DNA of 64,000 bases from Candidatus Moraniibacteriota bacterium (GTDB taxonomy: Bacteria; Patescibacteriota; Minisyncoccia; Moranbacterales; GCA-2747515), in assembly GCA_046116545.1 (NCBI GenBank), contig CP175956.1, positions 1,170,912-1,234,911 of the forward strand, in the 5' to 3' direction. Below, in pieces: positions 2,607 to 32,544 of the stretch. Every line of letters starts with the position of its first letter. Position 1 is the first letter of the stretch. The notes beneath the pieces are model-generated. The model was given only the letters and a program-made list of their open reading frames with translations. It was not told where the DNA came from and ran no database searches. Both the position numbers and the translations under genes were made by a program.

Positions 2607-3188
2607 TTAGAATTTCACTGAAACATTCTCTCGCTCTTTTTTATCCTCAATTTCGAAAAATTCTCGTAATGCAAATCCAAACATTCCAGCTATTATATTA
2701 CTAGGTACTGTTTGTACTTTTGTATTATAATCACGTACAGTTCCATTATAAAATCTTCTTGATGCTTGAATTTTATCTTCTGTATCTGTCAGATCATTTT
2801 GCAACTCTAAGAAATTTTGATTTGCTTTCAAGTCTGGATAATTTTCTGACACTGCAAACAATTTTCCAAGTGCTCCACTAAGACCCTCCTGAGCTCCTGC
2901 AAATGCAGCCATATCTTCTGCTGTTGCACTACCAGCATCTACATTTATTGCTGTTGCTTTTGACCTAGCTTCCATAACAGCTTCTAATGTTTCACTTTCA
3001 TGTTTAGCATATCCTTTTACAGTTTCAACAAGGTTTGGAATTAGATCATATCGTCTTTTCAACTGCACATCTATATCACTCCACCCTTCATCAACACGCA
3101 TTCGTAATTTCACAAGTGAGTTATAGATACCTATAACCATAACTACAAGAGCTATAAGTCCCCCAATAAAAATTAAGCCTATAATCAT
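2607..3188 (-). CDS. lemA: LemA family protein
   Basis: N-terminal TM followed by the conserved LemA core (YNSLVKLR...[20 protein letters not shown]); sits just upstream of htpX, a conserved LemA-M48 protease pairing. Confidence 0.8.
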
Positions 3189-9296: not shown

Positions 9297-9514
9297 TTCG
9301 AATATATTAATATTAACTATTACATTATAGTAAAATTCCTGCCTTCAACCCCAAGTGTCTATCTTTCGAACCAAGTTCAATTCACTTTGATACAAATTTT
9401 TCTGAAAAAATAACCGTAAAAAGAATACATAACAATAAAACAAGATTTCAATGTACTTGCATCTGTAACTACATTGAAAATATTATCTACTGATTAATAA
9501 ATACTTCACAATAC

Positions 9515-9545
9515 AAAAAAGACAAAATATTAATCTGTCTTTTTT
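9515..9545. terminator. AT-rich terminator hairpin downstream of the giant gene
   Basis: aaaaaagaca/tgtctttttt stem with an 11-nt loop, then a T-run. Confidence 0.35.
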
Positions 9546-9566
9546 GTAACTTTACTTAATATGAAT

Positions 9567-12500
9567 TTAATTGATTATAAACCAATCAACTTTCAAGTCT
9601 TCTAATCTTTCCTCCAACAACTTCACAACAAATGATTTTCCATCAATGATATCTTCTGCTGCCAAAGTTTGCTCAAGCGGAATTTTTGGACTAACAAACA
9701 CCCTACTATTCACATTAATAGACTCAGTTTCCACAATAACCTCAGTCTCACCAGCAACTATAGTAGCAGTTCCAATGGATGAAGCATTGATTTCGTTACC
9801 TTGTTCATCGTGTGTTGTTATATCGTCATTGATGTTCAATGTATTTGTTTCTATACTATTTACTTTTAAGTCATCTAATACAGTTAGACCTTCTATCGTG
9901 GTTATGAGTCTTGTAGTAGACATTGTATTATTATCTATTGTAAACAAGAATCTTTCATTTATGGCTAGAACTGTATCTGAATTTTTAGACACTGTACTTG
10001 CTAGATCTGACTGATATCCATCTAATTCATCCATTCTATCTTCTATTTCAGTTAGAGTTTCTGTTGCTAAAGTATTTGCATTTATTTGTAGTGACAGTAC
10101 CTCGTGCCTGTCATTAATTCCTCCTATGTCATCCTGAACTTGATTCAGGATCTCAGATGCATCATTTGTTTGTAATGACAAACCTAATTGTTTATCATTT
10201 AAATCTATAATTTGAGTATCAATTTCTGTTATCTTTTGTGGAGTTGGTAGGTTTGATATATCTATCAGATTTAGATTTGGTACTTCTTGTCCTGTTGTTA
10301 TATCTGTTATATATATTAGTTGTTGTCCTGTTAGTTTTTCTATCAATCTTACTGTTTTTGTCATATCTACATTTATTGATTTGTTGTCTTTTTCTGAGTA
10401 ATAGCTCCATGCTAATTCTTCACTTTCTCCTCCGGGTATAGTTGAGAAATTATGTGGAGATAGAGTTGTTGTATTTCCTGCTTCATCTCTTACTCTTAGT
10501 TCATGGGACCCACTTTGATCTACTGCAAACAGTTGTATCCCATTAACTATTGATGTTGTTGGAGCTATTGAGTTTGAGATTGTTAGGATATTATCTGCTG
10601 TTGTTCCGTAGTTACTTGATCCTATTCCTACGTTTCCTGATGTGTAGGCTATATTATTTCCTGTTTGGGTCCATGGAGAGTTTGTGGAGCCTCCTGAGGT
10701 TGAGCCTCGATCTAATTCTACCGCTTTAACACCTACAGAAAGACCTGCTGAATCTGCCTTCACCTGAGTTTTTTCTACAGGATGAAACCCTGTCTTATTA
10801 CCATAGTTAGTATTACTATTTGCTGTAAATAATTCATATGCAAATCCGTTTGCTGAAGGTGTACTATCATATGAGATACGCAAATAACCATTTGTACCAC
10901 CAAAGAGTACAGTTTCTGCTCGTGTTACTGGAATGATATTTGAATAATTTGGATAATTCCATGTTGTTGACATACTTGTTGTAAATAATGGACCTGTATC
11001 TTTTGCGAAATAAATTGTATCACCCTTCATTATAAATTGTTCAATATTACTTGAACTATCTGTTACTACATACCCAAGCCACCTATATGAAGTAAATCCA
11101 CTAGGTATATTTGTTGCATTTATATCTGTATCAAAACCTATGTCTGTTGTTCCATCATCTTTTTCTATTAGGAATACATAATACATTGTATCGTTTGCTA
11201 TTGTTCCACTGAATAGACCTCCTTGGTCATCTCCTTCTGAGAAGCTTGCATCTAATTGTTTTGTTAATCCTGTAGCTAATTCTAGATCTTTTAAATCTGT
11301 TTCATCTTTTGCGTATCCACTTGATACATATACATCATGGTCTGTATCTCCTGAGTCATTTGATAAGTTGAATCCGTATAGGAATCCTGGGGTGTACGAT
11401 GATGAGCTACTTCCTGATGATTCTTCTATTTTCCAGATTTTTAGGTCTGTGTATATTTCATATGGATTTCTATTAGAAGATCGTCCTTGTGCAGCAATAT
11501 TATCTGTGTAAAGAAGGAAATCAATTATTGTTTCTTCTGTAAAGGTTACTTTACCTGTAACAGTAGCATTATCATAATCAGCATATGTTGTACTTGCTGC
11601 TAAAAATGTGTTATCAATTTTTTGAATTTCTAAACGTGTTTTTCCTAAAGAACCAGTTCTAAAGGAAAGACCTGTACCTTCTAAATAATAGTCCCCCGCA
11701 GGTAGAGTGATTTGATTTGATGCAAGTGACGCACCTGCAATTTCATTTGTCATAACTGTATTTAATTGAAGTTGATTTTCACCCGTTGTAATTGTTTGTG
11801 GTGCAGTATTAGTTACTTTCTGATCCTGCACATGCATAAGATTCCAAGTTTGTCCTCCTCCAGATATACTTGAACTTCCACCTCCAATTAATGAACCAGA
11901 AAAGTTAGTCCAATAACCACCACTCATATTTTTATTTGCAGCATTATCATGATAAGCTCTTACTTCGAAATAATCTGTAGTTCCATTTGCATCAACAACA
12001 ACTGAAATTTTATTAGTACGATATGTACCCGTCAAATATCCATAATCACCTGTAACAACACTACCATTTTTATATATATACACTTGAGTTATATCACTAT
12101 CATTCAAATTTTCCCAACGAGTAGTAAAAGTTAATAAATATTTACCTTGAACTGTTGGAGTAAACTGCTCTGTTGTTAAATCAAAATCGTTATTTGTATC
12201 AAATTCCTCAGCATCCCAAGTTACTAAAGTATTTGTAGAACTTGGAATACTTTGGTCTACAGTGTTTTTATTTATACTAAATGATGAAGTGTTTCCAACT
12301 ACACCATCAGCACATTCCCAGTCACTACTCGCTTCATTATATGAAAGAGTTTGTCCATCTGTACATGTTGGTAATGATGATGATTCTGAACTTCCTGCGT
12401 ATTCGTATATTATAACTACACCATCGCTACCTGCTGATGCAGATCTAATGGTTGAACCATCATAACATCCTCCACCCCCACCAGAACCATAGCCTATACT

Positions 12501-15500
12501 TGTTTCAGCATTTTTTCCATTCTGTGCACTTTTAGCATTTTCAAATCCTAAAAATGATAATCCTCCATCTCCAGCTGGACAAGCTTGATAATTTGATAAT
12601 TCTTTTCCTCGTGAACCTGTGTTATTTATGTCACCACCGACTCCACTACCTGGAGCATCAGATACTGCCAATCTATTTCCTTTACCTCCACCAGTTGCTG
12701 ATACATGTGTATCAAATGATGTATCAGTACCACTAGTATTTACAACACCACCAGCACCTACAGTAACTGGAACACTTGTAATTGATGATACATCTATTAT
12801 TTTTTCTGCATAACCAGCACCACTACCTCCTCCACCTCCATAGTTTTCTTCATAGGCTTTTCCTCCTCCACCTCCACCAATAACCTGAACACGAATAGTT
12901 TCAATTCCTGCTGGTTTTGTCCATGTATGTGCTCCTGCTATATCAAATGTTTGGATTGACTTTATTCCACCTCCGCCTGAACTACTAACACCAGCACTAA
13001 CAATACTACTATCATCAGATGTAACTTCTGATATTCTTACACGTGTACTAAATTTTTCATCTGTTGTTCCACGACTTCCATTAATTAATAAAGTGCCATC
13101 ATATGATTTATGTCTGAATTTAAATTGAATATCAAAATCACCGGTTACACTACCTAATTCTGCACGTGTCATTCGTATCATTCCTGAATGTGTTTCTATG
13201 TCAGTAGCACCGTTAGACATCGCCAATTGATAACCAGAATTACCGATTGCAGTCCATGCACCACCATTAAGACTATACTCTAAATAAAGATATCCTCCAC
13301 CCCAACTAGTAGAAGCATTACGTGCAGGAATATTATAATCTAAATCAACATCAAAGCCATCACGAATTGTGACTGTATCCCATGTTTTACCATCAGTTAT
13401 TGCTGTGGTAAATGATCTATCAATATTATCATATTGCACAAATGAATGTGGAATTATACTTGTTCCACTTGAACTTCCTGTAGCAAAAGCTCCCCACTGC
13501 GTTCCATTACAAAACTCCATGACTTTTGTAGTGTCATTGTATCTCATTGCACCTTCTTTGTTTACATCACATGCATCTGTATCATTTGTTAGAGTTATTG
13601 ATCCTGTTAAGTTTATTGGTGTTGAAAACTCTATTTCATTTGATATTGTATTATATGATATTACTGCTTCATTTCCATCTTCTCCTATATGTAATGATGA
13701 TGGTCCTAGGTATAGATCTCTAAATCTATTTGTTGAAGATCCTAGGTCGTATGTATCATCTGTATCTGGTCCTATATGTCCTGCTACTTGTAGTGTGAAG
13801 TTATCTGGTGTTGTTGTTCCTATTCCTATATTTCCTGTGTCGTAGTATGCGTCTGAACCATTTGCTGTCCATAGGGATGAACTTGAACTTGATGAACCAC
13901 TTGATCCAACTGTTACATGTGCTGTACCTGTGAATACTGATGCTGCTAATGTATATTCATTTATATCATCTCCTGATGAACCTACTATAAATACTTTTGT
14001 TCCATCGTTGTTAAATGCTATTCCTGACACTACACCTTCTTGTGCTGATAAACTATATGTTCCTATATGACCTTCTGAATCTATATCAAATGGCCTTGCT
14101 AATGAATATTCATTAATTTCATCTCCATTTTGACCTACTATATACATTCTTTTTCCTCCTGGGCTAAATTCTATACCATTTGGATTTGCTTCTTCTACAC
14201 TAACTGATGATTGTTGTATAAAAGCTGCTGTTGTAACATCAAATGGTGTTGATAATGTGTATTCACCCACATCAATGCCAGTGCTACCAACAACAAACAT
14301 TTTTGTTCCATCATTATTAAATATCACATCATCTGGACCTGTGTCTTCTGTTGCTACTGAAAATCTGTCTGTATATGTAGCTGTTGATACATCAAATGCA
14401 GTTGACAATGTATATTGATTTACATCATCACCTGTGGTACCTATTACATACATGCTTGTTCCATCAGGATTAAATGTAAATCCCGTTGGAGATATTTCTT
14501 GTGTTGCAACTGAAAAACTATCTACAAAAGTTATTGTTGATGCGTCATATGGTGTTGATAGTGTATATTCATTTATATCATCACCTACACCTCCTAGAAT
14601 GAATAATTTTGTTCCATCATTGTTAAATTCTATATCTAATACAGTTGTATCTTGTGCTGTTAAACTCGTTGCATCCACAAAGCTCATAGTACTCAGATCA
14701 TACCCTGTTGCTACTGACTTTATGTCTAATGTAGTATTTGGAGCTATTACTCTTGTTATTTTATCTTTTGGATCTATATATTCTATTGTAATTCCGTCTT
14801 CTATTATTTCTATATGACCTTGAGTCATATCTGTTGTATCAATCATTACTGACATTGCCTCTGTTCCGTCTAAACTATCTAGTGCATTCCAAATTTCTGC
14901 TGTTGTAAAGATATGATTTATTCCTGAAGTCCCCCCAGAACTCCCAGCAGAAGAAGAACTTATTGTTACAGTTTGTGTTCCTGGTGATTTTTTAACTATT
15001 GTTAGAGTTTGATCTCCTAATCCTGTTGTTTGATATACAGTATAATCATCTGTTACATTTTTTTGTGCGTATCCTGTTGCATCAACACTAACATCTATTC
15101 TTTTTAGATTTGGGTTTTGTGTATCAGATGTTGAATAGAAAGTTGATGATAGATCAAAAGTTGTTTGATCTATTGCAAAGGATCCTGATGATTCCCAATC
15201 TGCATCAGATATTGATTCTAATGTTGTAGAGTTCATTTGATTCATTACTCCACTTTCTACTGCTTTTGATATTGCACTATTTGCATTATCTTCTATGCCT
15301 ACTGTACTCCAAGTATCTACGTTATCTCTGAAATACCAAGTTCCATCAGTTCCTCCATGAACTGATGCTTCTTTACTTGCAATGTATCTCCATGCTGAAC
15401 CAGTCCATACTTTGAAAGTATGTCTATTATTGAAACTTACCCCGTAGAATATTGATTGAGAGTTTAGGTTTTCTAATACACTTACTGAGTTTATATCTGT

Positions 15501-18500
15501 CCAATTTGCGCTATCTAAACCATCTTGGTTTGTTATTGTTGTTACGTATGCTCCTGTGTAGTTTCCTAGGGTTTTTTCGTAGAAGGTCATTTCTGAAATA
15601 TCTGTATAACTAGCATCACCATTATTTGCAGTAATATTTAATCTATAATATCTATATGCTGTATTATTAGTAAATCCTGAGTAATTTCTTTTTTCGTTAG
15701 ATAACCAATTCATTTCAGCTGAACGCACATCTAAAACAGTCCAAGTATTTGCATCATTACTTCCTTCAAATGTCCAATCTTTTGGTAATCTTGCTACAGT
15801 AATACCTTGAACAGAATACTCATAAACAATTGCTTCATTTCCTGATCCTAAATCATATTGAATGTGTGCAGCGCCACCCGGAGTACTTAACCATTGTGTT
15901 GAAGTGTTATCATCAAAGGCTCTACTTGGCACATAAGTAGCATAAGCTGAACTTGCCGTAGCAGCACCCCCAGTAGCAATATCACTAACATATTTAACAC
16001 TAGTAGCCTGTCCCAATGTATGAGCTGCATTACTTCCATCGAAGTATGTTCCATATATATTATCTACATCATATATTCCTAATTCTATTTCATTATCATT
16101 TGTGATATGTACTGATTCATTTGCTGTTCCATCTCCTGTTACATCTGTAATTGTGAACCACGCATCTTCCATTTTAAATCTTGATCCTACTCTTACTTTA
16201 TCTGCTGTATTTCCACTTCCTATTGATACTGCTGTATCTGATACGTCTTCGAAGTGTCCTTTGTTGTTGTGTTGGTCTGCGAAGAATTCTAATTCTGAAA
16301 TATCTGTATAACTAGCATCACCATTATTAGCAGTAATATTTAATCTGAAATATCTGTATGCCGTATCATTAATAAATCCTGAGTAATTTCTTTTTTCATT
16401 AGCTATCCAACCCATCTCAGCTGAACGCACATCTAATGCAGTCCAAGTATTTGCATCATTACTTCCTTCAAATGTCCAATCCTTTGGAGCTCTTGTTACA
16501 GAAGTGCTTCGAACAGAATATTCAGAAACAATAGCTTCATTTCCTGATCCTAAATCATATTGAATCTGTGCAGCGCCACCTGGAGTACTTAACCATTGAG
16601 TTGACGTATTATCATCAAAGGCTCTACTTGGTGGATAAGAAGCATGATGAGCACTTGATGTAACAGCCCCACCCGTAGCCAAATCAGGACCAGTACCTCC
16701 ACCAGTATCAACTAAGTCAACTTGAAATTGAGTTATGTTTTCTTTTAAATCTTCTTGTGTATAATTATCTTCTGAATTGTAATTTATGTTTTGTATTTTA
16801 TCAGTTTCTGTTTGTTCTTCTGTAATACTTACAATTGCTGAACCTGATACTGTTGTTGATTCTCCTTGTGCTAGAGTTACTTGAGTTTGAGTTACTCCAC
16901 TTCCTGATGTTCCTGTTGATAATCCTCCCCATATAGTTCCATTACAAAACTCCATGACTTTTGAAGTGTCATTGTATCTCATTGCACCTTCTTTTGTTAC
17001 GTCACAAGCTGATGCGTCATTATTGAGAGTTATACTTCCTCCTATAGCTAGATTGTTTCCATCGTATGTGAAGTTTGAGTTTTGAGTTATTGCATTTCCT
17101 GCACTATTTGTGAATTGTATTTGATTTGCACTTAGGCTTGCTGGTGTATCTGTTAGTCCTGTATATGTTGAAGTTCCTCCACTTGATGTTAGAGAGTTCC
17201 ATACTGAACCATCGTATCCTTCTAGATCTGTTCCACTCCATCTTATCATTCCTGCTACTGCATTTGTACTTGTTCCAAATACTGCTGCTTTATCAAAGTT
17301 GAAAGCTTCGTTTATTGTATCGTAACTTATTATTCCTTCATTTCCGTTTTCTCCTATATGTAGAGAGTTTGGTCCTAGGTATAGGTCTCTGAATCTATTT
17401 GTACTACTTCCTAGGTCGTATGTATCATCTGCATCTGGTCCTATATGTCCTGCTACTTGTAGTTTGAAGTTTGTTGGAGTATTTGTTCCTATTCCAATAT
17501 TACCGTTACTATTTAGAATAGTAAACAAACTAGATGAAAATAAATCAGTAGTACTTGCACCACCACCTCTAGTAATTACAAAATCATTCCCCAAAAGTCC
17601 TTGTTGCCAAGCAGTTTGACCGCCTCTATGAAAAGACAAGTATGGAACATTCCCATCATCAGTGGAACTATTTGAATAAATTTCTTGAAAAGCAAATGTA
17701 CCATTTCCAATTTGATTTTTCATTGTTGAACCTGAATATGCACTTTCTACTTCTAATTTACTATTTGGTACCATTGTTCCTATGCCAATACTTCCTGCAA
17801 AATAATTTTTTGCAGTACTATTTTTTTGATATACTCCATATTTATTTATAACATTTGCTCCACCATCTAGATTATCAAGAAAAATTGCATATGAATTTGT
17901 AATTGTTCCTGTCGGATTGATTGTATTAGAGCCCACTCTACTCCATATACCATACTGTTCATTTAGAGCTCCTTGAAAATTTGAATCATTCGTAAAACCT
18001 TGAACACCTAATCCAATTCTATATCCCGAGTCTAAAACACCTGCCGCTATTGGCAAATCATAACCTGTGATATCTACAACTTTATAATGATTTGTTCCAC
18101 TAGCTATAACATCTGGATATGTTTCACCTATGTCTAATGTATTTGCTATTGGAGGATTTACCGCTATCCCAATTGAATCATAACTTGCATCTATACTAAA
18201 TAGATTCAAAATGTTTTCTCCTTCAATTCTAAAGTTATTATCTCCACCTTCTTCATTAAAAATCGCACTTCCTCTAACATCCAACATTGCATTTGGACTA
18301 TCCGTCCCAATCCCAACTCTCCCATTAACAGTATCAACAAAAAAATCATTTGAATTAACTGTAAAGTCATCTCCCAGAGTTAATCCTCCAGTTTTATTTT
18401 GAATTGAGTTTGAAGTATTTAAATAGTAATCTTCTGTTTGTCCATTAAACCTATGTGAGTTTAAAGCAAAACCTGTTGGAGTTATTTTTCTTCTTGGAGT

Positions 18501-18872
18501 CATCTCTGAATTTGAGTTTATTGTTACTCCTAGGTAATAGTTTGAATCAAAAGTTATATCTAATACATTATCTCCACTTTCTCCTAGAGTTGTACTAAAT
18601 ATCCCATTTGTTATTGTTAAAGTTTTTGAAGTTGGAGTTCCACATGTTCCTCTACTAGTCCATAGACATGTTCCTCCTGATTCTGCATCATATATTGTTA
18701 ATGTGAAATCATAATCTCCATCTGATACTGCTACGTTATTAGTATCTGTTAGTTTTCCATGATATGTTAGTTCACTGTCTGGTGCAGCTTGTGTAATTGA
18801 AAAATTAAGAATTATTGCTAACGCAATTATTCCTAATATGTAAGTTAATTTGTTTTTGAAAGTTTTTTTCAT
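9567..18872 (-). CDS. Giant (3101 aa) secreted multidomain surface protein with phage tail-fibre-like motifs, two discoidin (F5/8 type C)-like domains, a Gly-rich domain and beta-propeller-like repeats
   Basis: Single uninterrupted 9.3-kb ORF; signal peptide; recurrent VGIGT..P..L.V.G and DLGSS.NRFRDLYLG motifs; duplicated SRAFDDNTSTQWLS...YRYFRLNITAN discoidin-like domains; GGGGGG-rich block; 6 tandem repeats of about 48 aa. Confidence 0.8.
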   Translation of the reverse strand: MKKTFKNKLTYILGIIALAIILNFSITQAAPDSELTYHGKLTDTNNVAVSDGDYDFTLTIYDAESGGTCLWTSRGTCGTPTSKTLTITNGIFSTTLGESGDNVLDITFDSNYYLGVTINSNSEMTPRRKITPTGFALNSHRFNGQTEDYYLNTSNSIQNKTGGLTLGDDFTVNSNDFFVDTVNGRVGIGTDSPNAMLDVRGSAIFNEEGGDNNFRIEGENILNLFSIDASYDSIGIAVNPPIANTLDIGETYPDVIASGTNHYKVVDITGYDLPIAAGVLDSGYRIGLGVQGFTNDSNFQGALNEQYGIWSRVGSNTINPTGTITNSYAIFLDNLDGGANVINKYGVYQKNSTAKNYFAGSIGIGTMVPNSKLEVESAYSGSTMKNQIGNGTFAFQEIYSNSSTDDGNVPYLSFHRGGQTAWQQGLLGNDFVITRGGGASTTDLFSSSLFTILNSNGNIGIGTNTPTNFKLQVAGHIGPDADDTYDLGSSTNRFRDLYLGPNSLHIGENGNEGIISYDTINEAFNFDKAAVFGTSTNAVAGMIRWSGTDLEGYDGSVWNSLTSSGGTSTYTGLTDTPASLSANQIQFTNSAGNAITQNSNFTYDGNNLAIGGSITLNNDASACDVTKEGAMRYNDTSKVMEFCNGTIWGGLSTGTSGSGVTQTQVTLAQGESTTVSGSAIVSITEEQTETDKIQNINYNSEDNYTQEDLKENITQFQVDLVDTGGGTGPDLATGGAVTSSAHHASYPPSRAFDDNTSTQWLSTPGGAAQIQYDLGSGNEAIVSEYSVRSTSVTRAPKDWTFEGSNDANTWTALDVRSAEMGWIANEKRNYSGFINDTAYRYFRLNITANNGDASYTDISELEFFADQHNNKGHFEDVSDTAVSIGSGNTADKVRVGSRFKMEDAWFTITDVTGDGTANESVHITNDNEIELGIYDVDNIYGTYFDGSNAAHTLGQATSVKYVSDIATGGAATASSAYATYVPSRAFDDNTSTQWLSTPGGAAHIQYDLGSGNEAIVYEYSVQGITVARLPKDWTFEGSNDANTWTVLDVRSAEMNWLSNEKRNYSGFTNNTAYRYYRLNITANNGDASYTDISEMTFYEKTLGNYTGAYVTTITNQDGLDSANWTDINSVSVLENLNSQSIFYGVSFNNRHTFKVWTGSAWRYIASKEASVHGGTDGTWYFRDNVDTWSTVGIEDNANSAISKAVESGVMNQMNSTTLESISDADWESSGSFAIDQTTFDLSSTFYSTSDTQNPNLKRIDVSVDATGYAQKNVTDDYTVYQTTGLGDQTLTIVKKSPGTQTVTISSSSAGSSGGTSGINHIFTTAEIWNALDSLDGTEAMSVMIDTTDMTQGHIEIIEDGITIEYIDPKDKITRVIAPNTTLDIKSVATGYDLSTMSFVDATSLTAQDTTVLDIEFNNDGTKLFILGGVGDDINEYTLSTPYDASTITFVDSFSVATQEISPTGFTFNPDGTSMYVIGTTGDDVNQYTLSTAFDVSTATYTDRFSVATEDTGPDDVIFNNDGTKMFVVGSTGIDVGEYTLSTPFDVTTAAFIQQSSVSVEEANPNGIEFSPGGKRMYIVGQNGDEINEYSLARPFDIDSEGHIGTYSLSAQEGVVSGIAFNNDGTKVFIVGSSGDDINEYTLAASVFTGTAHVTVGSSGSSSSSSSLWTANGSDAYYDTGNIGIGTTTPDNFTLQVAGHIGPDTDDTYDLGSSTNRFRDLYLGPSSLHIGEDGNEAVISYNTISNEIEFSTPINLTGSITLTNDTDACDVNKEGAMRYNDTTKVMEFCNGTQWGAFATGSSSGTSIIPHSFVQYDNIDRSFTTAITDGKTWDTVTIRDGFDVDLDYNIPARNASTSWGGGYLYLEYSLNGGAWTAIGNSGYQLAMSNGATDIETHSGMIRMTRAELGSVTGDFDIQFKFRHKSYDGTLLINGSRGTTDEKFSTRVRISEVTSDDSSIVSAGVSSSGGGGIKSIQTFDIAGAHTWTKPAGIETIRVQVIGGGGGGKAYEENYGGGGGSGAGYAEKIIDVSSITSVPVTVGAGGVVNTSGTDTSFDTHVSATGGGKGNRLAVSDAPGSGVGGDINNTGSRGKELSNYQACPAGDGGLSFLGFENAKSAQNGKNAETSIGYGSGGGGGCYDGSTIRSASAGSDGVVIIYEYAGSSESSSLPTCTDGQTLSYNEASSDWECADGVVGNTSSFSINKNTVDQSIPSSTNTLVTWDAEEFDTNNDFDLTTEQFTPTVQGKYLLTFTTRWENLNDSDITQVYIYKNGSVVTGDYGYLTGTYRTNKISVVVDANGTTDYFEVRAYHDNAANKNMSGGYWTNFSGSLIGGGSSSISGGGQTWNLMHVQDQKVTNTAPQTITTGENQLQLNTVMTNEIAGASLASNQITLPAGDYYLEGTGLSFRTGSLGKTRLEIQKIDNTFLAASTTYADYDNATVTGKVTFTEETIIDFLLYTDNIAAQGRSSNRNPYEIYTDLKIWKIEESSGSSSSSYTPGFLYGFNLSNDSGDTDHDVYVSSGYAKDETDLKDLELATGLTKQLDASFSEGDDQGGLFSGTIANDTMYYVFLIEKDDGTTDIGFDTDINATNIPSGFTSYRWLGYVVTDSSSNIEQFIMKGDTIYFAKDTGPLFTTSMSTTWNYPNYSNIIPVTRAETVLFGGTNGYLRISYDSTPSANGFAYELFTANSNTNYGNKTGFHPVEKTQVKADSAGLSVGVKAVELDRGSTSGGSTNSPWTQTGNNIAYTSGNVGIGSSNYGTTADNILTISNSIAPTTSIVNGIQLFAVDQSGSHELRVRDEAGNTTTLSPHNFSTIPGGESEELAWSYYSEKDNKSINVDMTKTVRLIEKLTGQQLIYITDITTGQEVPNLNLIDISNLPTPQKITEIDTQIIDLNDKQLGLSLQTNDASEILNQVQDDIGGINDRHEVLSLQINANTLATETLTEIEDRMDELDGYQSDLASTVSKNSDTVLAINERFLFTIDNNTMSTTRLITTIEGLTVLDDLKVNSIETNTLNINDDITTHDEQGNEINASSIGTATIVAGETEVIVETESINVNSRVFVSPKIPLEQTLAAEDIIDGKSFVVKLLEERLEDLKVDWFIIN
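13870..14770. repeat. Coding tandem repeats (about 144-nt period, 6 copies) inside the giant gene
   Basis: Encodes repeated FNNDGTK.F..G..GDDINEYTLS units. Confidence 0.6.
15595..15928. repeat. Direct repeat copy 1 (about 334 bp, about 90% identical to copy 2) inside the giant gene
   Basis: Nucleotide-level near-identity seen by eye; encodes a duplicated discoidin-like domain. Confidence 0.8.
16297..16631. repeat. Direct repeat copy 2 inside the giant gene
   Basis: See copy 1. Confidence 0.8.
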
Positions 18873-19102
18873 TTTTTGTGTTTATTGTATCCCCTGTTCT
18901 CTCGTATTTACTAAGTTTTTAGTGTTTTTTATTATTTTCTTTTGTTTGTTTATGTAGGGTTATTATATCATATTGTTTATTTCTTGTCTTGTTTTGTTTG
19001 TATGGGTTTTTAAAACTGTTTGTTTTATTGACAAAATAGCCAAAATGGTGTATAAAGTAGACAAGTCGCAATCATGTTTATTTTACAAAAAGGAGTTTTA
19101 AA

Positions 19103-19753
19103 TTGGAAAAAACTATTAAAGTTGGTGGAATAATTCAATTGACACTAGATGGCAGGCCCCCAAGGCAAGCTACTGGTAAAATGACAATTTTAAATGAGCT
19201 TATAGGTTACCTATATTGTTTTTTAGGTGGTAGCGTATACCCTGGTAATAAACCGCAAACAACCAAAACTCTTGCCAAGATGTTAGTAAATGCTCAATTA
19301 TATGATAATCACAATAATTTATGCTTTTCCTTTCCAAAAAAAATTAGGCAGAAATTTGATTTGAATCAATGTTATTCAATATCATTGATAAAAGGGGATG
19401 TTTTTGGATTTTATTGTAAAGATTTACTTCCAAAAGCAAAACTATCCTGCATGATAAAAATTGATGCTTTTGGAAAAGAACAAAAATATGCCTTTCGCCG
19501 TATTCAACGAATAATTGTGAATTCGGAGCATTTTCTTAAATCTGTCACCATACAAAGAATTGATGATGGATTTATAACGACAATTAAATCGAGAATGGAA
19601 GGCATAGACGATATAACCATTGAATCACAAAAAGATTTATTATCGGCTATATACGAATTACAAAAAATATTAATTCCACTTACAAAAGAGGAAAAAAAGC
19701 GCAAACAAGAACGTGAGGAAGCATTGAAGAAATTACATCCTCAAAAAAATTAA
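19103..19753 (+). CDS. Hypothetical protein with Lys/Glu-rich C-terminus
   Basis: 216-aa ORF followed by a strong terminator; no recognisable motif. Confidence 0.45.
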   Translation: MEKTIKVGGIIQLTLDGRPPRQATGKMTILNELIGYLYCFLGGSVYPGNKPQTTKTLAKMLVNAQLYDNHNNLCFSFPKKIRQKFDLNQCYSISLIKGDVFGFYCKDLLPKAKLSCMIKIDAFGKEQKYAFRRIQRIIVNSEHFLKSVTIQRIDDGFITTIKSRMEGIDDITIESQKDLLSAIYELQKILIPLTKEEKKRKQEREEALKKLHPQKN

Positions 19754-19842: not shown

Positions 19843-20907
19843 ATGTTTTGGCTTATATTTCGTACAACCATATATTTATCACTTTTTGCACTCATTTGGT
19901 ATGGTGGTCAATTTTATATTTCCTCAGAATTAAACAAGGACTTACATAAAATGACACCTGATACAATTTTTGTAAATAAAAAGATTTTAGAAAATCAAGA
20001 TTATGCCATAGAGCAAGATGGATCGTATACATATCCCTTTGCAACCATAACGCAAGCACTTGAAGTTATCCAAAAAGATGACACTATAACAATCATCATT
20101 TCTGACGGCTCTTATGATGAAGAGTTAATACTTCCTGAAAATACTACTCTATACGGAGATGGTGCTGTAACGATTTCACAAGGAATTGATGTTCCCTCCA
20201 TTAGGACAATAACAACTGCCAATAATACAAAATTAATAAACTTAACTGTCACTGGAGGCAATCATACAATTTATATACCACACAATACTTCTTTGACATT
20301 ATTAAATTCTACTATAAGTGGAGCTGATGACTTTGGTATAAAAATGGATAAAAAAGAACGCGCTCCCGACTTTAAAGAAAGCACAACAAATCTTGTTTAT
20401 GAATTTTTCAACAAAACAAAAGAAGAAATAGAAGCTATGCCACTTGTACGAATCAGTAACTCAACTATTACAAAAAACGATAACCAAGGATTATATCTAC
20501 AAAATGGTCGTGTTGAAATATTAAACTCTCAAGTTATAGAAAATGGAGAGGAAGGCATTGATTTACATCCTCATATGCATACCACAATCAAAAATACAAA
20601 TGCATCTAATAATGGTGAGAGTGGTCTTGAGAGTGAAATTTATGACAACATTATAATTATAGAAAATTCTACGTTTAACAATAATATAAAAAATGGATTG
20701 GGATTTATAACTTCACATGGACTTGGCAATATCACAGTATCAAATAATACAATAAATGATAATCAAAAATTTGGTATAAGGTGTGCTGTACACAAAAGTA
20801 AACCAAAGCAACCGAGACCTTTTTTCTCTTCCATGATTACGAACATTAATAATACATTAGAAAATAATATTAAAGCAAATATAGATTCTACTTGCATTAC
20901 CTTTTAA
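19843..20907 (+). CDS. Right-handed parallel beta-helix repeat protein (pectin-lyase-fold-like), membrane-anchored or secreted
   Basis: N-terminal hydrophobic segment; multiple N..I..N-type beta-helix repeats (NSTITKNDNQGLYLQNG..., NSTFNNNIKNGLGF..., NNTINDNQKFGIRC). Confidence 0.5.
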   Translation: MFWLIFRTTIYLSLFALIWYGGQFYISSELNKDLHKMTPDTIFVNKKILENQDYAIEQDGSYTYPFATITQALEVIQKDDTITIIISDGSYDEELILPENTTLYGDGAVTISQGIDVPSIRTITTANNTKLINLTVTGGNHTIYIPHNTSLTLLNSTISGADDFGIKMDKKERAPDFKESTTNLVYEFFNKTKEEIEAMPLVRISNSTITKNDNQGLYLQNGRVEILNSQVIENGEEGIDLHPHMHTTIKNTNASNNGESGLESEIYDNIIIIENSTFNNNIKNGLGFITSHGLGNITVSNNTINDNQKFGIRCAVHKSKPKQPRPFFSSMITNINNTLENNIKANIDSTCITF

Positions 20908-23755: not shown

Positions 23756-26700
23756 TTAAACTTTAATATCCTCCCTAACAAGACCTTTCCTAACATTGAT
23801 ATTACCTTGTTTTTCAAAAGGTTGTCCTGATATTGGTTGTCCTTTTACTTTCATATTGTAATCTCCATTTTCTGCTAGAAGATAATATCTTCCTATTGCA
23901 TCTGTTACAGCGAATCCTGTTTTTTGATTTGTTTCTTTGTTATGGAGTGATACTACTGCAAAAGGTACTGGGTTTTTATCATGTTTTGTTACTGTTCCAT
24001 ATTTCTTTTGTTTTATGAAGTTATCATAAATGAACAGTGCCATATATAGAGATAGGAATATGTAATTTAGAGTTGATGGGTACAGGTAAGTTATTGCTGC
24101 TGTAGCTATAAATCCTACGTAAAAAAGAATTATGAAGCTCCATTTCTTTATTGCTGAGAAAGTTCCTGTATAGCTTTTTACTTTTTTATCTGCATATTCA
24201 TTCCAGTTTATATTCAGGGCATTCATTGCAATATTTGTTGCTAGAACTTTGTTTTCTTCTATTGTTAATGCTTCTCCTGTATATACATCTCCGTATAGTG
24301 AATCATGGTTATGAGTTAGGTCTTCTTCATATTTTGGTTTTTCTGGATGTATCAGATATGTTCCATTTGTTGTTAAGAATCCAAATCTTCCATGTTGATC
24401 TGAGTATGTTGTTTCTATTTCAAAGCCCTCTATATCAGTTAGAACTAGTTTTACTCCAGGCAATGGTTGTTTTGTTGTTTGTTCAAACACTGTTCCCCAG
24501 TTTTGTTCATTTTTTCTTCTAGCTAATATTCCTAAGAAAGGCATTATGAATATATCTGTTGCTGCCATTGGGATTGTTGTGAATAGAGGGATTGTTGTTG
24601 AAGCTAGAGCTATTAGTGTTCCTGTTGTTAATCCTACTACTGCAGCTGCTTGATATTGTTTTTCTTTTTGTTGTTCCTTTGTTGGTTCTTGTACAGGAGG
24701 ATCTGTTACTTCTTGTGCTGGTGGTTCAGGATCACTTCCTCCTTGTACTACTGGAGGAGTTACTATTTCTTTTTCTTCTCTACTAGCGCTACATGTTATT
24801 TCTTCATCATCATTTGTACATGTCCATGAAGATGATTCTCCTTGATTTGGAAATTCTGGTATATTTAATACTTCTCCTGTTTGACAGAAGTCTCCTGTGA
24901 ATTCTGATTCATCTTCTGTATATGTTTTACTTGATTCTCCACATTCTGGATTTACTATTTCTTTTGTAGGTCCTAGAGTTGTTTTTTCTGTTGTTGCTGT
25001 TTTAGAATGTGGACAGTATTCGTAGCTATCATCTTCTTGATATGATACTTTGAACCTATATTGGGTATCTTCTTCTAGGTTATCTATCTCTAGAGTTACT
25101 CTTCCACTATCAGATGGTTTATCCGTTAGTTTTATTGTTTCTTTTTCATTTGTATATAGATTCTCTACTTCTACTTTGAATTTTATTTTCTCATCTGCGT
25201 ATTCTTCATCTACTTCTACTCTTAGAGTTACTGAATCTTTTGTTATTTCTTTTATATTGTCGGTTTTGCATTCTTTTTCTTCTTCTGGATCCTCTGGGTG
25301 TATTGGTGGGGTTACTGGAGAATCACATGATGGGTCTGGTTTTGTTTTGTATGTGAAGTCTGATCCTGTGTTGTCAGGTTGTGTTGTATATGCTATCTCC
25401 CATTTATCTAGTTTTGGAGTTATTTGGTTGTCTGTTGTTTCAAATGTGAATTTTAGACAAATTTCAATATTACTCGTACTAATTCCACTTAAATCAATGT
25501 TCCTATCTACTGTACTTGGAATTAATGTTGTTATACAATTTTTATCTAGTATTTCTGTTTCTAATATGGTATTGGCAACAGAATCAACTGTTATATTTAA
25601 ATTATTCCACTCTTTTACAAATCCAACTGTACTAACAATTGTCTTATATTCTCCAGTTGCACTATAAGCCAATGGATCATAGGTTCCATCTGTGTTATAT
25701 GCTGTAAAAAATACATCTTTATCTCCATTAGAGATATGTTCATCTGACCCACCCGTTCCATCAAAATTTACCATTTCTGAAAACATTCCAATAATTCTAA
25801 CATCTTCACCATGTACCCATGGTTTTATAGCATAATCGCCACCAACTCCACCAAACGTACGTGTCCATCCATATGTTCCATCTGCATTATATCTAGTCAA
25901 AAATGCATCTTCCATTCCGTTTGAAGCATGTTCATCTGTTCCACCGGTTCCATCAAAATTACCATCCTCCCAAAAATATCCAGATACATAAATATTATTA
26001 GCACCATCAACTGCAACACCATTTCCAGTACCAGCCCCAAATGTGCGTGTCCATTCATATGTTCCATTTGTAGCATATTTTGTTAAAAATACATCACTAG
26101 TTCCGTCTGCTACATGCACATCACTACCACCACCCGTATCAAAATTCACAGAATCAGAAAAAGTTCCCACAATAAGTATATCTCCATTTATATCTATTAC
26201 ATTACCAAATCCCCTATCTTGATTGGTAGCTCCAAATGTACGTGTCCATCCATATGTTCCATCTGCATTATATCTTGTTAAAAATACATCATTACTTCCA
26301 TTAGATGTATGATTATCTACGCTACCACTAGCATCAAAATCAAATACACCTGTAAAGGAACCCGTTGAAAATACACCACCAAAAGAATCAACTGCTAGAG
26401 AATTGGCACTTCCATCTTGCACGCCTCCAAATGTACGTGTCCATCCATATGTTCCATCTGCATTATATCTTGTTAAAAACATGTCACTTGTTCCACTACT
26501 TACCGTATGCATATCTGCTCCACCAGTATCATCAAAATTTACAGTAGCATGGAACACACCTACTATAAAAACATTTCCGCTAGCATCAATGCCAATATGC
26601 CCTGCTTCATCAGGTCCACAGTGCGTCATCATACAATCTGCACTACCTAGACCGATTACGCGTGTCCATCCATATGTTCCATCTGCATTATATTTTGTTA

Positions 26701-29492: not shown

Positions 29493-30296
29493 TTACATAT
29501 AACCTAATGATCGTAATTTTTGCATTGCAAATTCTTTTTCCTTATCCTGTGCCCTACCATCCCTTTCATCTGTATTTTCATTTTTTAATTCCTCTATGAT
29601 CTCATCAATTGTTATCGCACTACTATTTATTGGATTTGTTATTTGTTGACATCCCAAACTACGATATCTTTTACCATTTTTTGCAAAATATAACTCATTT
29701 ACTGGCATATTTTCTTGTTTGATATATTCCCAAATTTCAACTTCAGTCCAGTTCAATATTGGATGTATACGAACATGTCCTCCATCTTCTATATTTTGAG
29801 TATAAACATCACCTACTTGTGTATCATGATTCATATAATCCCAAGAAAAATCTGATTTTCTAGGAGAAACTACTTGTTCTTTTGCACGAATTCCGTGTTC
29901 ATCAGCTCTAATACCTACAAATAATCCTTTAATTTCTTTTTCTTTAACTATATCTTGTAATGGTACTGTTTTTAAATTATGACATACTGTCACAGCATCA
30001 TGTGATTCATATGACATCCCTTCTTTTATAGCTCTTTCATTCGTTTTTATAATTAAATCTAATTCTAATTCATTAGCATAATAATCACGAAATTCATACA
30101 TTTCTGGAAATTTAAATGTTGTATCTATATGAATGACTGGAAATGGAATATTACCAAAAAATGCTTTTTTACAAAGCCAAAGTAATACAGTGGAATCTTT
30201 CCCCATACTCCAAAGTAATGCTAGATTTTTTTGTTGTGCATACATTTCACGGATGATATAAATACTTTCATCCTCACGCTCTTTCAAAATACTCAT
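29493..30296 (-). CDS. cysD: Sulfate adenylyltransferase subunit 2 (PAPS reductase/ATP sulfurylase small subunit family)
   Basis: LLWSMGKDSTVLLWL (SxGKDS PP-loop), HIDTTFKFPEMYEFRD, both CysD-like. Confidence 0.7.
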   Translation of the reverse strand: MSILKEREDESIYIIREMYAQQKNLALLWSMGKDSTVLLWLCKKAFFGNIPFPVIHIDTTFKFPEMYEFRDYYANELELDLIIKTNERAIKEGMSYESHDAVTVCHNLKTVPLQDIVKEKEIKGLFVGIRADEHGIRAKEQVVSPRKSDFSWDYMNHDTQVGDVYTQNIEDGGHVRIHPILNWTEVEIWEYIKQENMPVNELYFAKNGKRYRSLGCQQITNPINSSAITIDEIIEELKNENTDERDGRAQDKEKEFAMQKLRSLGYM

Positions 30297-32242: not shown

Positions 32243-32251
32243 AATTCACAC

Positions 32252-32536
32252 CTATATAAAAAATGAAATACAAATCCATACAATACCAATTAAAACTAAT
32301 ACTGCTAATATAATTATTAATTTTCCAAATACATTCCAGTTCCAAAGTTTTTTAATTTTCATCAATGTTGCAACAGCAAGGCTCCCAAAAAATGCAAATA
32401 CCAATCCAATTCCAGCACCAAGTCCTCCAACAACACTCCCAGCTGTTCCAGGGTCAATGTAGGCATACACACTTTGTACTTGCACAGCAGTTACTATTAC
32501 CAACGATAAACACAGACTTATATACTTCATATTCAC
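32252..32536 (-). CDS. Small membrane protein (signal peptide plus Gly-zipper TM)
   Basis: 94 aa; GGLGAGIGLVFAFFG motif; lies in the operon between two AlkP-family genes. Confidence 0.4.
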   Translation of the reverse strand: MNMKYISLCLSLVIVTAVQVQSVYAYIDPGTAGSVVGGLGAGIGLVFAFFGSLAVATLMKIKKLWNWNVFGKLIIILAVLVLIGIVWICISFFI

Positions 32537-32544
32537 TTTTTATT

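What the first reader, a model, noticed from the sequence alone, without database searches (positions are those of the whole stretch)
9567..18872. A 9.3-kb single gene encoding a chimeric 3101-aa surface protein built from phage tail-fibre-like modules
One ORF occupies about 15% of the window. It carries a signal peptide, repeated VGIGT(x)P..L(x)V(x)G and DLGSS.NRFRDLYLG motifs that I associate with phage tail-fibre or tail-spike proteins, two discoidin-like carbohydrate-binding domains, a Gly-rich GGGGGG block, six propeller-like repeats and a long coiled C-terminal region. There are no capsid or terminase genes nearby, so this looks like cellular co-option of tail-fibre receptor-binding modules into a giant adhesin. 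That would be consistent with an epibiotic lifestyle.
Basis: partly seen in the sequence, partly recalled or inferred. Interest (0 to 1): 0.65.

Follow-up and report, generated by a model that had tools for sequence, protein, structure and literature searches.

The report
Phage-fibre-like giant adhesin of a CPR bacterium
This 9.3-kb gene of a tiny, probably host-dependent Moraniibacteriota bacterium encodes a secreted 3101-residue fibre that joins a purely cellular N-terminal domain to a string of phage tail-fibre-type and sugar-binding modules, most likely to grip other cells much as predatory Bdellovibrio does with its MAT fibres.

Summary
There is one intact ORF (9567..18872, minus strand, 3101 aa). 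It has a Sec-type signal peptide, five VGIGTxxPxxxL motifs, two DLGSSxNRFRDLYLG motifs, two discoidin domains, a Gly_rich_2 domain, an SGL/lactonase-type propeller (five full 51-aa repeats plus a partial one) and a C-terminal coiled coil.

The motifs are statistically tied to a cyanophage fibre and to four Bdellovibrio MAT fibre structures. Peptidase_S74 is absent. In its place is an unannotated ~111-aa module that ends more than 70 short proteins; the two whose contigs I examined lie in phage tail gene clusters. The N-terminal domain is cellular: 323 loci in species-representative genomes, none in IMG/VR, no PHROG match. It heads thousands of long proteins, mostly from Patescibacteria.

The same 1.29-Mb genome carries five paralogs with shared ends and shuffled middles. 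No phage structural genes lie in the 64 kb.

Best reading: a trimeric, MAT-like surface adhesin from a recombining repertoire. Function and trimerisation are inferred. A mis-join between paralogs cannot be excluded, because near-identical tracts reach 318 aa. Novelty: a new variant of a known kind. Interest: moderate.

The parts
9567..18872 (-). Whole ORF, 3101 aa plus stop. Identical to NCBI XLQ20057.1, 'MAG: discoidin domain-containing protein [Candidatus Moraniibacteriota bacterium]'.
18786..18872 (-). Sec-type signal peptide (aa 1-29). The predicted cleavage after TQA is inferred from the sequence pattern.
18453..18785 (-). Family-defining N-terminal Ig-like beta-sandwich (aa 30-140). It is cellular, not viral, and is the presumed cell-proximal anchor.
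   Evidence: pLDDT 84-97 over aa 31-130. No significant PDB fold match. 323 loci in GTDB species genomes, 0 in IMG/VR, no PHROG match. A profile that also includes the signal peptide and the first capping loop hits 3,096 representatives at E<=1e-30.
16773..18452 (-). Fibre shaft 1 (aa 141-700). It has capping-loop motifs at aa 186, 362 and 459, a DLGSSTNRFRDLYLG motif at aa 487, and a Cys623/Cys643 mini-motif.
   Evidence: phrog_9942 and phrog_18345, tail fibre, E 1e-6 to 1e-5
16290..16664 (-). Discoidin (F5_F8_type_C) domain 1, aa 737-861.
15579..15983 (-). Discoidin (F5_F8_type_C) domain 2, aa 964-1098. It is 81-84% identical to copy 1.
14937..15575 (-). Unassigned domain, aa 1100-1312. It is 99.5% identical to aa 917-1129 of paralog XLQ19999.1.
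13908..14771 (-). SGL/lactonase-type beta-propeller, aa 1368-1655. Five full 51-aa repeats plus a partial first one.
13473..13874 (-). Fibre shaft 2 (aa 1667-1800). It duplicates part of shaft 1 at 71-80% identity: capping loop at aa 1682, DLGSS motif at aa 1710, Cys1768/Cys1788.
12987..13463 (-). Unassigned domain, aa 1804-1962. It has no homolog among the retrieved proteins.
12408..12938 (-). Glycine-rich domain (Pfam Gly_rich_2), aa 1979-2155. It lies within the phrog_863 match (aa 1879-2186).
11868..12293 (-). gC1q/TNF-like jelly-roll domain, aa 2194-2335.
   Evidence: Pfam C1q is below cutoff. A profile of 14 homologous segments hits adiponectin (E=7e-7), C1q, C1q-related factor and collagen X NC1.
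11403..11867 (-). Phage tail-fibre-type domain, aa 2336-2490 (phrog_24210).
   Evidence: E=1.3e-9 for this segment; all 5 homologous segments match, best 5.5e-24. No PDB sequence match.
10683..11396 (-). Unassigned domain, aa 2493-2730.
10311..10643 (-). ~111-aa module (aa 2744-2854) absent from Pfam and PHROGs. It sits where relatives carry Peptidase_S74. It forms the extreme C-terminus of more than 70 short proteins, and the two whose contigs I examined lie in phage tail gene clusters.
9981..10241 (-). Predicted coiled coil, aa 2878-2964 (two long helices).
9570..9818 (-). Terminal beta-sandwich, aa 3019-3101. It resembles the C-terminal domain of phage tailspikes and depolymerases (K1-lyase_C-like) and ends in the family-conserved DWFI(I/V) motif.
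18962..18990 (-). Candidate promoter (AAGACA-17-TATAAT with TG), ~90 nt upstream of the ATG. This is a consensus match only; the region has no more such sites than shuffled sequence.
9513..9547 (-). A/T-rich hairpin followed by a T run, ~20 nt after the stop codon. Possible terminator, read by eye and not reported by the scanner.

Best explanation
The gene encodes a Sec-exported, probably homotrimeric fibre displayed on the surface of a Moraniibacteriota (Patescibacteria) cell.

Proposed arrangement:
- The conserved N-terminal Ig-like domain holds the fibre at the cell envelope.
- Two beta-helical shaft segments with capping loops, of the kind seen in phage S74-type fibres and Bdellovibrio MAT fibres, space out a series of ligand-binding modules.
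- Those modules are two discoidin domains, a beta-propeller, a polyglycine-rich domain, a gC1q/TNF-like head and further phage-fibre domains. They bind glycans or proteins on another cell, the presumed host.
- The conserved C-terminal cassette (phage tail-fibre end module, coiled coil, tailspike-like beta-sandwich) nucleates and registers trimer assembly. In this lineage it does so without the S74 autoprotease that relatives use.

Five paralogs in the same genome share the two ends and exchange middle cassettes by recombination, giving a repertoire of specificities.

Shown here: the ORF, the domain identities, their phage and MAT affinities, the cellular-only distribution of the N-domain, the chromosomal context, and the paralog mosaic.

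Inferred: export and surface anchoring, trimerisation, adhesion to a host cell, and the assembly role of the C-terminal cassette.
For: The shaft-unit profile hits a cyanophage fibre (8i4m, E=2e-8) and four Bdellovibrio MAT structures: 8ond Bd2133 (5e-8), 8ol4 Bd2439, 8oml Bd1334 and 8ojn Bd3182. The MAT paper's capping-loop consensus V-G-G/N-pi-x-x-P-x-x-x-L matches the five VGIGTxxPxxxL copies.

The architecture of a signal peptide followed directly by a conserved beta-rich N-domain matches the published MAT description.

The N-domain is cellular only. It sits at the N-terminus of nearly all of the 150 best-scoring proteins, which are 169-4986 aa long.

gC1q heads and TNF-like tips are trimeric in known cases, and MATs use TNF-like tips.

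The C-terminal cassette is conserved in relatives that carry a canonical S74 (SDxRLK) at the position of the aa 2744-2854 module. That module ends short proteins that sit at the tail-fibre position of a GTA-like siphophage tail cluster and a SU10-like podophage structural cluster, and whose N-terminal parts match PHROG tail-fibre families.

The terminal sandwich matches tailspike and depolymerase C-terminal domains: 9k4a, 7eea, 7w1c, 2vbe and BFVD K1-lyase_C proteins.

Five paralogs (XLQ19853, 19940, 19999, 20013, 20057) have N-termini 73-100% identical and C-termini 45-90% identical, with different middles and shared near-identical tracts.

The neighbourhood is chromosomal: Mur ligase, FemAB, M16 peptidase, UvrB, RNase P RNA and a polysaccharide gene cluster.

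GC (0.346) is typical of the window, whose other ORFs average 0.338.
Against: - There is no experimental or expression evidence.
- Trimerisation could not be modelled because only monomer predictions were available.
- Homology of the N-domain to the Bdellovibrio MAT N-domain could not be tested. No MAT N-domain is in the PDB, and the AlphaFold database library was unavailable.
- No known wall-anchoring signal is present: no LPxTG and no lipobox.
- Four regions (aa 860-965, 1100-1312, 1804-1962, 2493-2730) have no assignment and could hold an enzymatic activity.
- GC3 (0.145) is about 1.7 SD below the window's other ORFs.
- Near-identical tracts shared with paralogs leave an assembly mis-join possible.
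Confidence: 0.68

Rival explanations
1. Assembly chimera. The ORF as deposited is a mis-join of two or more of the five paralogous giant genes of the same genome, made where they share near-identical sequence.
For: This protein shares tracts of at least 95% identity with different paralogs: aa 454-740 and 1092-1331 with XLQ19999.1, and aa 501-740, 857-979 and 2732-3049 with XLQ19940.1. These are up to 318 aa, or about 950 nt. That is longer than short reads.
Against: The frame is open over 9306 nt. The genome is a single 1,286,331-bp contig. Most module junctions in this protein recur colinearly in a paralog or in an independent 14.5-kb contig (P0004). Recombination among paralogs would give the same mosaic pattern, and the Bdellovibrio MAT study infers evolutionary tip swapping.
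Confidence: 0.1
2. The gene is a real tail-fibre gene of a prophage, tailocin or other phage-derived particle, not a cellular surface protein.
For: Many modules have phage fibre or spike relatives. NCBI names two paralogs 'tail fiber protein'.
Against: No capsid, portal, terminase, tape-measure, sheath or baseplate family was found in 40 other ORFs across the 64 kb. The protein starts with a Sec signal peptide. Its N-domain has 323 loci in cellular genomes, none in 2.9 million viral contigs, and no PHROG match. The five paralogs are spread over about 200 protein accession numbers.
Confidence: 0.03
3. It is a surface fibre whose main job is not attachment to a partner cell. It might be an envelope or S-layer-like structural element, a scavenger of environmental polysaccharide, or a carrier of an unrecognised glycan-degrading activity, as in phage depolymerase spikes.
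For: The terminal domain resembles those of capsule depolymerases and lyases. About 700 residues are unassigned. The window is rich in envelope and polysaccharide genes, and a beta-helix protein gene lies next door.
Against: No catalytic family was detected. The End_tail_spike hits are far below cutoff (12.9 and 13.6 bits against 25) and lie on the shaft motif. The recognisable modules are all binding folds (discoidin, gC1q, propeller). A multi-paralog repertoire with swapped binding modules is the pattern described for recognition proteins.
Confidence: 0.17

Closest known systems
Bdellovibrio bacteriovorus MAT (mosaic adhesive trimer) fibre superfamily (Caulton et al. 2024, PMC10769870)
   Same: - A signal peptide is followed directly by a conserved beta-rich N-domain.
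- The beta-helical shaft carries the V-G-G/N-pi-x-x-P-x-x-x-L capping loop. The profile hits Bd2133, Bd2439, Bd1334 and Bd3182.
- Ligand-binding domains are swapped between family members, including TNF/C1q-like ones.
- Family members occur with or without S74.
- Each genome carries many paralogs.
- The organism lives on other bacteria.
   Different: - The protein is about three times longer (3101 aa against ~1000 aa).
- Binding modules are strung along the fibre rather than placed only at the tip.
- An extra conserved C-terminal cassette (coiled coil plus tailspike-like sandwich) follows the S74 position.
- The organism is a Patescibacterium, a group absent from the MAT paper's survey table.
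- Homology of the N-domains is untested.
Phage tail fibres and tailspikes with a C-terminal Peptidase_S74 intramolecular chaperone (K1F endosialidase 3GW6, T5 pb1 4UW8)
   Same: The shaft motifs are shared, with weak profile hits to 4uw8 and 3gw6 and a strong one to the cyanophage P-SCSP1u fibre. Relatives of this protein carry a canonical S74 with SDxRLK.
   Different: This protein has no S74: no Pfam hit, SPHNFS in place of SDxxxK, and a mostly beta module in the model. It also has a signal peptide and a cellular N-domain instead of a virion-attachment domain.
Short proteins of uncultured phages that end in the ~111-aa 'ELKVRDEAGNxTTLSPHNF...INVDM...LTGEKLVY' module (for example P0058 and P0112)
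   Same: Identity is 50-68% over aa 2744-2854. In 75 of 112 of these proteins the match ends within 5 residues of the C-terminus.
   Different: They are 200-750 aa long. P0058 and P0112 lie in phage tail or structural gene clusters, and several have N-terminal parts that match PHROG tail-fibre families. In the giant protein the module is internal and is followed by 247 more residues.
Phage tailspike and depolymerase C-terminal beta-sandwich domains (K1-lyase_C, PF24146; 7w1c, 9k4a, 7eea, Sf6 2vbe)
   Same: The fold of aa ~3019-3101 matches: Foldseek probability 0.98-1.00 and rmsd 2.5-2.7 A over 73-86 columns for 9k4a and 7eea. Twenty BFVD hits reach E<=1e-3.
   Different: Sequence similarity is below the Pfam cutoff (20 bits against 27). 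No lyase or beta-helix catalytic domain precedes it here.

Membership tests
MAT (mosaic adhesive trimer) fibre superfamily | Signal peptide followed directly by a conserved ~130-aa beta-rich N-terminal domain | tested here: inconclusive
   The architecture is present: a signal peptide, then a beta-sandwich (aa 31-130, pLDDT 84-97). Homology to the Bdellovibrio N-domain could not be tested. None is in the PDB, afdb50 was unavailable, and the PDB fold search gave only generic Ig-like hits. As an indirect hint, the best genomic matches include MAGs labelled Micavibrio, Bdellovibrionales and Pseudobdellovibrionaceae, but those labels may reflect mis-binning.
MAT (mosaic adhesive trimer) fibre superfamily | Beta-helical shaft with capping-loop motif V-G-G/N-pi-x-x-P-x-x-x-L | tested here: met
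   There are five copies. The unit profile hits Bd2133 (E=4.8e-8), Bd2439 (4.2e-4), Bd1334 (1.9e-3) and Bd3182 (0.011).
MAT (mosaic adhesive trimer) fibre superfamily | Homotrimeric fibre along its whole length | not testable with these tools
   Only monomer AlphaFold2 was available. A gC1q-like domain and a coiled coil are compatible with a trimer.
MAT (mosaic adhesive trimer) fibre superfamily | Multi-paralog repertoire with a conserved N-terminus and swapped adhesive domains | tested here: met
   Five paralogs in one genome have N-termini 73-100% identical and different middle domains (SPRY, LamG, RCC1, collar, discoidin).
MAT (mosaic adhesive trimer) fibre superfamily | Surface display and binding of prey or host glycans | not testable with these tools
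   This needs experiments.
Peptidase_S74 intramolecular chaperone (PF13884) | Pfam PF13884 match near the C-terminus | tested here: not met
   There is no hit in the whole protein at E<=1 or in the C-terminal 373 aa at E<=0.05. Five of the 11 aligned C-terminal sequences do match, best 2e-17.
Peptidase_S74 intramolecular chaperone (PF13884) | Catalytic S-D-x-x-x-K motif | tested here: not met
   At the aligned position this protein and its Moraniibacteriota paralogs read SPHNFS, where relatives read SDQRLK, SDINLK, SDARLK or SDERLK.
Peptidase_S74 intramolecular chaperone (PF13884) | S74 fold | tested here: not met
   The model of aa 2738-2858 is mostly beta with one helix. The 50 listed Foldseek PDB matches include no S74 structure such as 3GW6 or 4UW8.
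Discoidin / F5_F8_type_C (PF00754) | Pfam score above the gathering cutoff | tested here: met
   59.3 bits against 28.2, with two stretches.
Gly_rich_2 (PF21722) | Pfam score above the gathering cutoff | tested here: met
   41.9 bits against 24.3, covering profile positions 3-223 of 226.
gC1q / TNF-like head domain (PF00386) | Sequence-profile similarity to C1q-family globular heads | tested here: met
   Pfam alone is below cutoff (17.4 bits against 23.7). A 14-segment profile hits adiponectin (7e-7), C1q A/C (3e-6), C1q-related factor (1e-5) and collagen X NC1 (4e-5).
SGL / lactonase-type beta-propeller (PF08450, PF10282) | Pfam score above cutoff and a blade-like repeat series | tested here: met
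   As a tile, SGL scores 28.3 bits against 26.3 and Lactonase 22.2 against 21.7. There are five full 51-aa repeats plus a partial one. The blade count of the folded propeller was not determined.
Prophage or tailocin tail-fibre gene | Location inside a cluster of phage structural genes (capsid, portal, terminase, tail) | tested here: not met
   None was found in the 64-kb window by Pfam.

The most novel reading that the evidence does not exclude
Patescibacteria carry a very large, so far undescribed branch of MAT-like host-recognition fibres. These are built on a cell-specific N-terminal anchor domain and a C-terminal assembly cassette. In the Moraniibacteriota lineage the S74 autoproteolytic chaperone has been exchanged for a different, unannotated phage tail-fibre end module. 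That module may be a new kind of intramolecular folding or registration domain that is not cleaved off. Gene conversion among the five dispersed paralogs (about 44.5 kb, roughly 3.5% of a 1.29-Mb genome) would then continually reshuffle binding cassettes to track host surfaces.
Probability: 0.3. Interest if true: 0.7.

Novelty: new variant of a known kind. Interest (0 to 1): 0.5.

Why it matters
How ultrasmall Patescibacteria find and hold their hosts is largely unknown. The experimental papers my searches returned concern type IV pili and a few unnamed adhesins in Saccharibacteria.

This gene points to a second, phage-like recognition system. It is a repertoire of modular fibres comparable to the Bdellovibrio MAT proteins, and it takes up several per cent of a minimal genome. 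The N-domain family is very large: its profile, which also covers the signal peptide and the first capping loop, hits 36,170 representatives at E<=1e-10.

Three things follow:
- The binding cassettes are concrete handles for predicting host range.
- The S74-replacing module is a testable candidate for a new fibre-assembly domain, with possible use in phage and tailocin engineering.
- Module sharing between cells and phages is a case study in the exchange of receptor-binding parts.

Tried and rejected
- Whole-protein phmmer against PDB sequences gave no hit at E<=1.
- A Foldseek search of the N-domain model against the PDB gave only generic Ig-like matches, none at E<=1e-3.
- The afdb50 library, needed to compare with MAT N-domains, was not available.
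- tblastn of the aa 2730-2855 module against 50,697 GenBank phage records found nothing. Only one IMG/VR contig (L001) has the module by pattern scan.
- The first genome contigs attempt, with the broad N-terminal alignment, failed because it had no conserved stretch.
- The third homolog search used the N-terminus of a MAG labelled Pseudobdellovibrionaceae. It returned only short proteins (336 aa or less), mostly with no source name; the few named ones near the top were CPR. It did not bridge to Bdellovibrio MATs.
- Exact look-ups of P0001 and P0002 in the contig index found no record, so the paralog loci could not be read.
- The profile of aa 2336-2490 had no PDB sequence match.
- Four regions (aa 860-965, 1100-1312, 1804-1962, 2493-2730) stayed unassigned in Pfam and PHROGs.
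- No paralog or related gene lies elsewhere in the window.
- The prophage reading was rejected on context.
- S74 membership was rejected on three tests.
- The supplements of the MAT paper hold no N-domain sequences.
Full report
OBSERVATION

The window has one uninterrupted ORF at 9567..18872 on the minus strand, 3101 codons with an ATG start.

An identical protein is on record at NCBI as XLQ20057.1, 'MAG: discoidin domain-containing protein [Candidatus Moraniibacteriota bacterium]'. It lies on a single 1,286,331-bp contig.

The window is AT-rich (GC 0.33). Nearly all genes are on the minus strand.

The neighbours are ordinary chromosomal genes:
- Mur ligase, FemAB, an AI-2E transporter and an M16 peptidase on one side.
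- UvrB and an EF-Tu-like GTPase on the other.
- A MurJ, glycosyltransferase, Wzz and sugar-transferase cluster further on.
- RNase P RNA.

No capsid, portal, terminase or tail family appeared in the 40 other ORFs that I scanned.

The gene's GC (0.346) is typical of the window. Its GC3 (0.145) is about 1.7 SD below the other ORFs.

*Signal peptide.* The N-terminus has a basic n-region, a hydrophobic core and a TQA|AP site. AlphaFold models it as a helix.

*Motifs.* VGIGTxxPxxxL-type motifs occur five times (aa 186, 362, 459, 1682, 2748). DLGSSTNRFRDLYLG occurs twice (aa 487, 1710).

*Discoidin.* Two F5_F8_type_C domains score well above the Pfam cutoff and are 81-84% identical to each other.

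*Glycine block.* It is a Gly_rich_2 domain.

*Propeller.* It consists of five full 51-aa repeats plus a partial one. As a tile it passes the SGL and Lactonase cutoffs.

*Coiled C-terminus.* The helical part is only about 90 residues, aa 2878-2964.

*Repeat collapse.* The internal DNA repeats are 84-87% identical and at most 394 nt long, so collapse within the gene is unlikely.

ARE THE MOTIFS REALLY PHAGE-FIBRE-LIKE?

I built a profile from 20 copies of the VGIGT/DLGSS unit and searched PDB sequences. The hits were:

| Target | E-value |
|---|---|
| Cyanophage P-SCSP1u fibre gp28 | 2e-8 |
| Bdellovibrio Bd2133 | 5e-8 |
| Bd2439 | 4e-4 |
| Bd1334 | 2e-3 |
| Bd3182 | 0.011 |
| T5 L-shaped fibre, K1F endosialidase, K5 lyase | 0.13-0.55 (weak) |

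The Bdellovibrio proteins are the MAT (mosaic adhesive trimer) fibres (PMC10769870).

PHROGs add further phage links:
- phrog_17517 ('tail protein') over the discoidin region, and phrog_863 over aa 1879-2186.
- phrog_24210 ('tail fiber protein', E=1.3e-9) over aa 2336-2490.
- Weak tail-fibre families on both shaft segments.

A profile of aa 2194-2335 identifies a gC1q/TNF-like head, with adiponectin at 7e-7.

THE C-TERMINUS AND THE S74 TEST

Relatives share a conserved C-terminal region of about 370 residues.

In P0005, P0008, P0012 and P0020 that region begins with a canonical Peptidase_S74 carrying SDxRLK. A coiled coil and a small terminal domain ending in DWFIV follow it.

This protein and its Moraniibacteriota paralogs fail three S74 tests:
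- There is no Pfam hit. None of the window protein's C-terminal 373 aa matches, whereas 5 of the 11 aligned C-terminal sequences do.
- The catalytic motif is replaced by SPHNFS.
- The modelled fold is mostly beta, and the listed PDB matches include no S74 structure.

The slot is filled by a ~111-aa module, aa 2744-2854. This module is 50-68% identical to the end of short proteins of 200-750 aa. In 75 of 112 of them the match ends within 5 residues of the C-terminus.

Two of those proteins lie in clear phage structural or tail gene clusters:
- One follows TMP, DUF2460, gp84, NlpC/P60 and Phage-tail_3 genes.
- The other follows SU10-type portal, capsid and adaptor genes.

The N-terminal parts of several of these proteins hit PHROG tail-fibre families.

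The module itself is in neither Pfam nor PHROGs. It is also absent from 50,697 GenBank phage records.

The last ~83 residues fold into a beta-sandwich with pLDDT above 90. It matches tailspike and depolymerase C-terminal domains:
- PDB: 9k4a, 7eea, 7w1c and Sf6 2vbe.
- BFVD: many phage proteins named 'K1-lyase C-terminal domain'.
- Pfam: K1-lyase_C at E=1e-3.

THE N-TERMINUS

Residues 30-140 form a confident Ig-like sandwich with no significant PDB neighbour.

The domain has no Pfam or PHROG family.

Pattern scans found 323 confirmed loci in GTDB species-representative genomes. The best 80 are almost all Patescibacteria (Moraniibacteriota, Saccharibacteria, Vogel-, Kaiser- and Magasanikbacteria, Paceibacteria). 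A few MAGs are labelled Micavibrio or Bdellovibrionales.

The same kind of scan found none in 2.9 million IMG/VR contigs.

An exhaustive profile search was also run. Its profile includes the signal peptide and the first capping loop. It hit 66,205, 36,170 and 3,096 cluster representatives at E<=1e-3, 1e-10 and 1e-30. In nearly all of the 150 best-scoring proteins (169-4986 aa) the match is at the N-terminus.

So a cellular anchor-type domain is joined to phage-type fibre parts.

PARALOGS AND MOSAICISM

The same genome encodes five such proteins:

| Accession | Length (aa) |
|---|---|
| XLQ19853 | 2466 |
| XLQ19940 | 3249 |
| XLQ19999 | 3250 |
| XLQ20013 | 2780 |
| XLQ20057 (this one) | 3101 |

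Together they total 14,846 aa, about 3.5% of the genome.

Their N-termini are 73-100% identical and their C-termini 45-90% identical. Their middles differ: SPRY, LamG, RCC1, collar or discoidin.

This protein shares tracts of at least 95% identity, up to 318 aa long, with different paralogs.

That pattern fits cassette exchange by recombination. It is also the situation in which short-read assemblers mis-join. I could not read the paralog loci or the reads, so the chimera rival stays at about 0.1.

MECHANISM

The best-supported model has five parts:
- The protein is exported by the Sec pathway.
- It is held at the envelope by the N-domain.
- It assembles as a trimer, nucleated from the C-terminal cassette.
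- It projects a long shaft that carries several binding modules for surface glycans or proteins of a partner cell.
- The paralog set provides breadth of recognition.

The domain identities, context and family structure are shown. Export, trimerisation, anchoring and adhesion are inferred by analogy with MAT fibres and phage fibres.

COMPARISON AND NOVELTY

The closest described system is the Bdellovibrio MAT superfamily.

Features met:
- The capping-loop shaft.
- The architecture of a signal peptide followed by an N-domain.
- The multi-paralog repertoire.
- TNF/C1q-type binding domains.

N-domain homology was untestable here.

Differences:
- Threefold greater length.
- Binding modules placed in series along the fibre.
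- An extra conserved C-terminal cassette.
- S74 replaced by an unannotated phage module.

The MAT paper's survey of other lineages lists no Patescibacteria. My literature searches found no description of such fibres in CPR bacteria.

I rate this a new variant of a known kind, with moderate interest (0.5). It is real and biologically suggestive. It also has a clear conceptual precedent, and automated pipelines already annotate parts of it.

Noticed in passing
window 42688-45255 (-): An 855-aa protein has seven EPTP (PF03736) repeats, E=1.3e-96. I know this repeat mainly from vertebrate LGI/epitempin proteins (from memory, not checked here). It is probably a beta-propeller surface protein.
   Followed up: no
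window 23756-28213 (-): A second large ORF (1485 aa) has CarboxypepD_reg-like domains and an SBBP propeller repeat. It is another likely surface protein and is unrelated in sequence to the giant gene.
   Followed up: partly
window 19843-20907 (+), with 19103-19753 (+): A 354-aa right-handed beta-helix (Beta_helix/NosD) protein and a 216-aa ORF with no family are transcribed divergently from the giant gene's upstream region. Any functional link is unknown.
   Followed up: no
window 34086-46762 (-): An envelope-polysaccharide cluster: MurJ, DUF4012, three GT4 glycosyltransferases, a Wzz-like protein, a Phage_holin_4_2-family membrane protein and a Bac_transf sugar transferase.
   Followed up: no
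window 46795-47143 (-): A bacterial class A RNase P RNA (109 bits). No tRNA gene occurs in the whole 64 kb.
   Followed up: no
window 29493-33999 (-): PAPS reductase, a 649-aa phosphodiesterase/pyrophosphatase-family protein and a sulfatase lie side by side. This is an unexpected set for a reduced CPR genome.
   Followed up: no
giant protein aa 623-643 and 1768-1788 (window about 16944-17006 and 13509-13571): A duplicated Cys-x19-Cys mini-motif, 'ACDV(T/N)KEGAMRYNDT(S/T)KVMEFCNGT(I/Q)WG', closes each shaft segment. It recurs in the relatives P0005 and P0008. I found no family for it.
   Followed up: partly
proteins P0032, P0039, P0042 (relatives, not in the window): In these relatives the N-domain lies 330-580 residues in from the start. 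It is preceded by precomputed phage-integrase SAM-like N-terminal Pfam hits (PF02899, PF13495). This may be a gene-call fusion or a real fusion.
   Followed up: no
loci L002, L004, L010, L018: MAGs labelled Micavibrio, Bdellovibrionales and Pseudobdellovibrionaceae carry the N-domain at 49-75% identity to the CPR consensus. L002 has CPR-like GC (0.32). The named close homologs of the L018 sequence are Parcubacteria and Pacebacteria, so these contigs may be mis-binned.
   Followed up: partly
relatives P0005, P0008, P0012, P0020 (C-terminal regions): In these relatives a canonical S74 domain is not terminal. About 250-300 further residues follow it (coiled coil plus beta-sandwich). Autocleavage would release a much larger fragment than in the S74 proteins I know of, where the domain is terminal.
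   Followed up: partly
locus L083, 15762-21686: The SU10-like phage contig that carries a module-bearing fibre also encodes a protein of more than 2680 aa with InPase and LPD39 domains.
   Followed up: no
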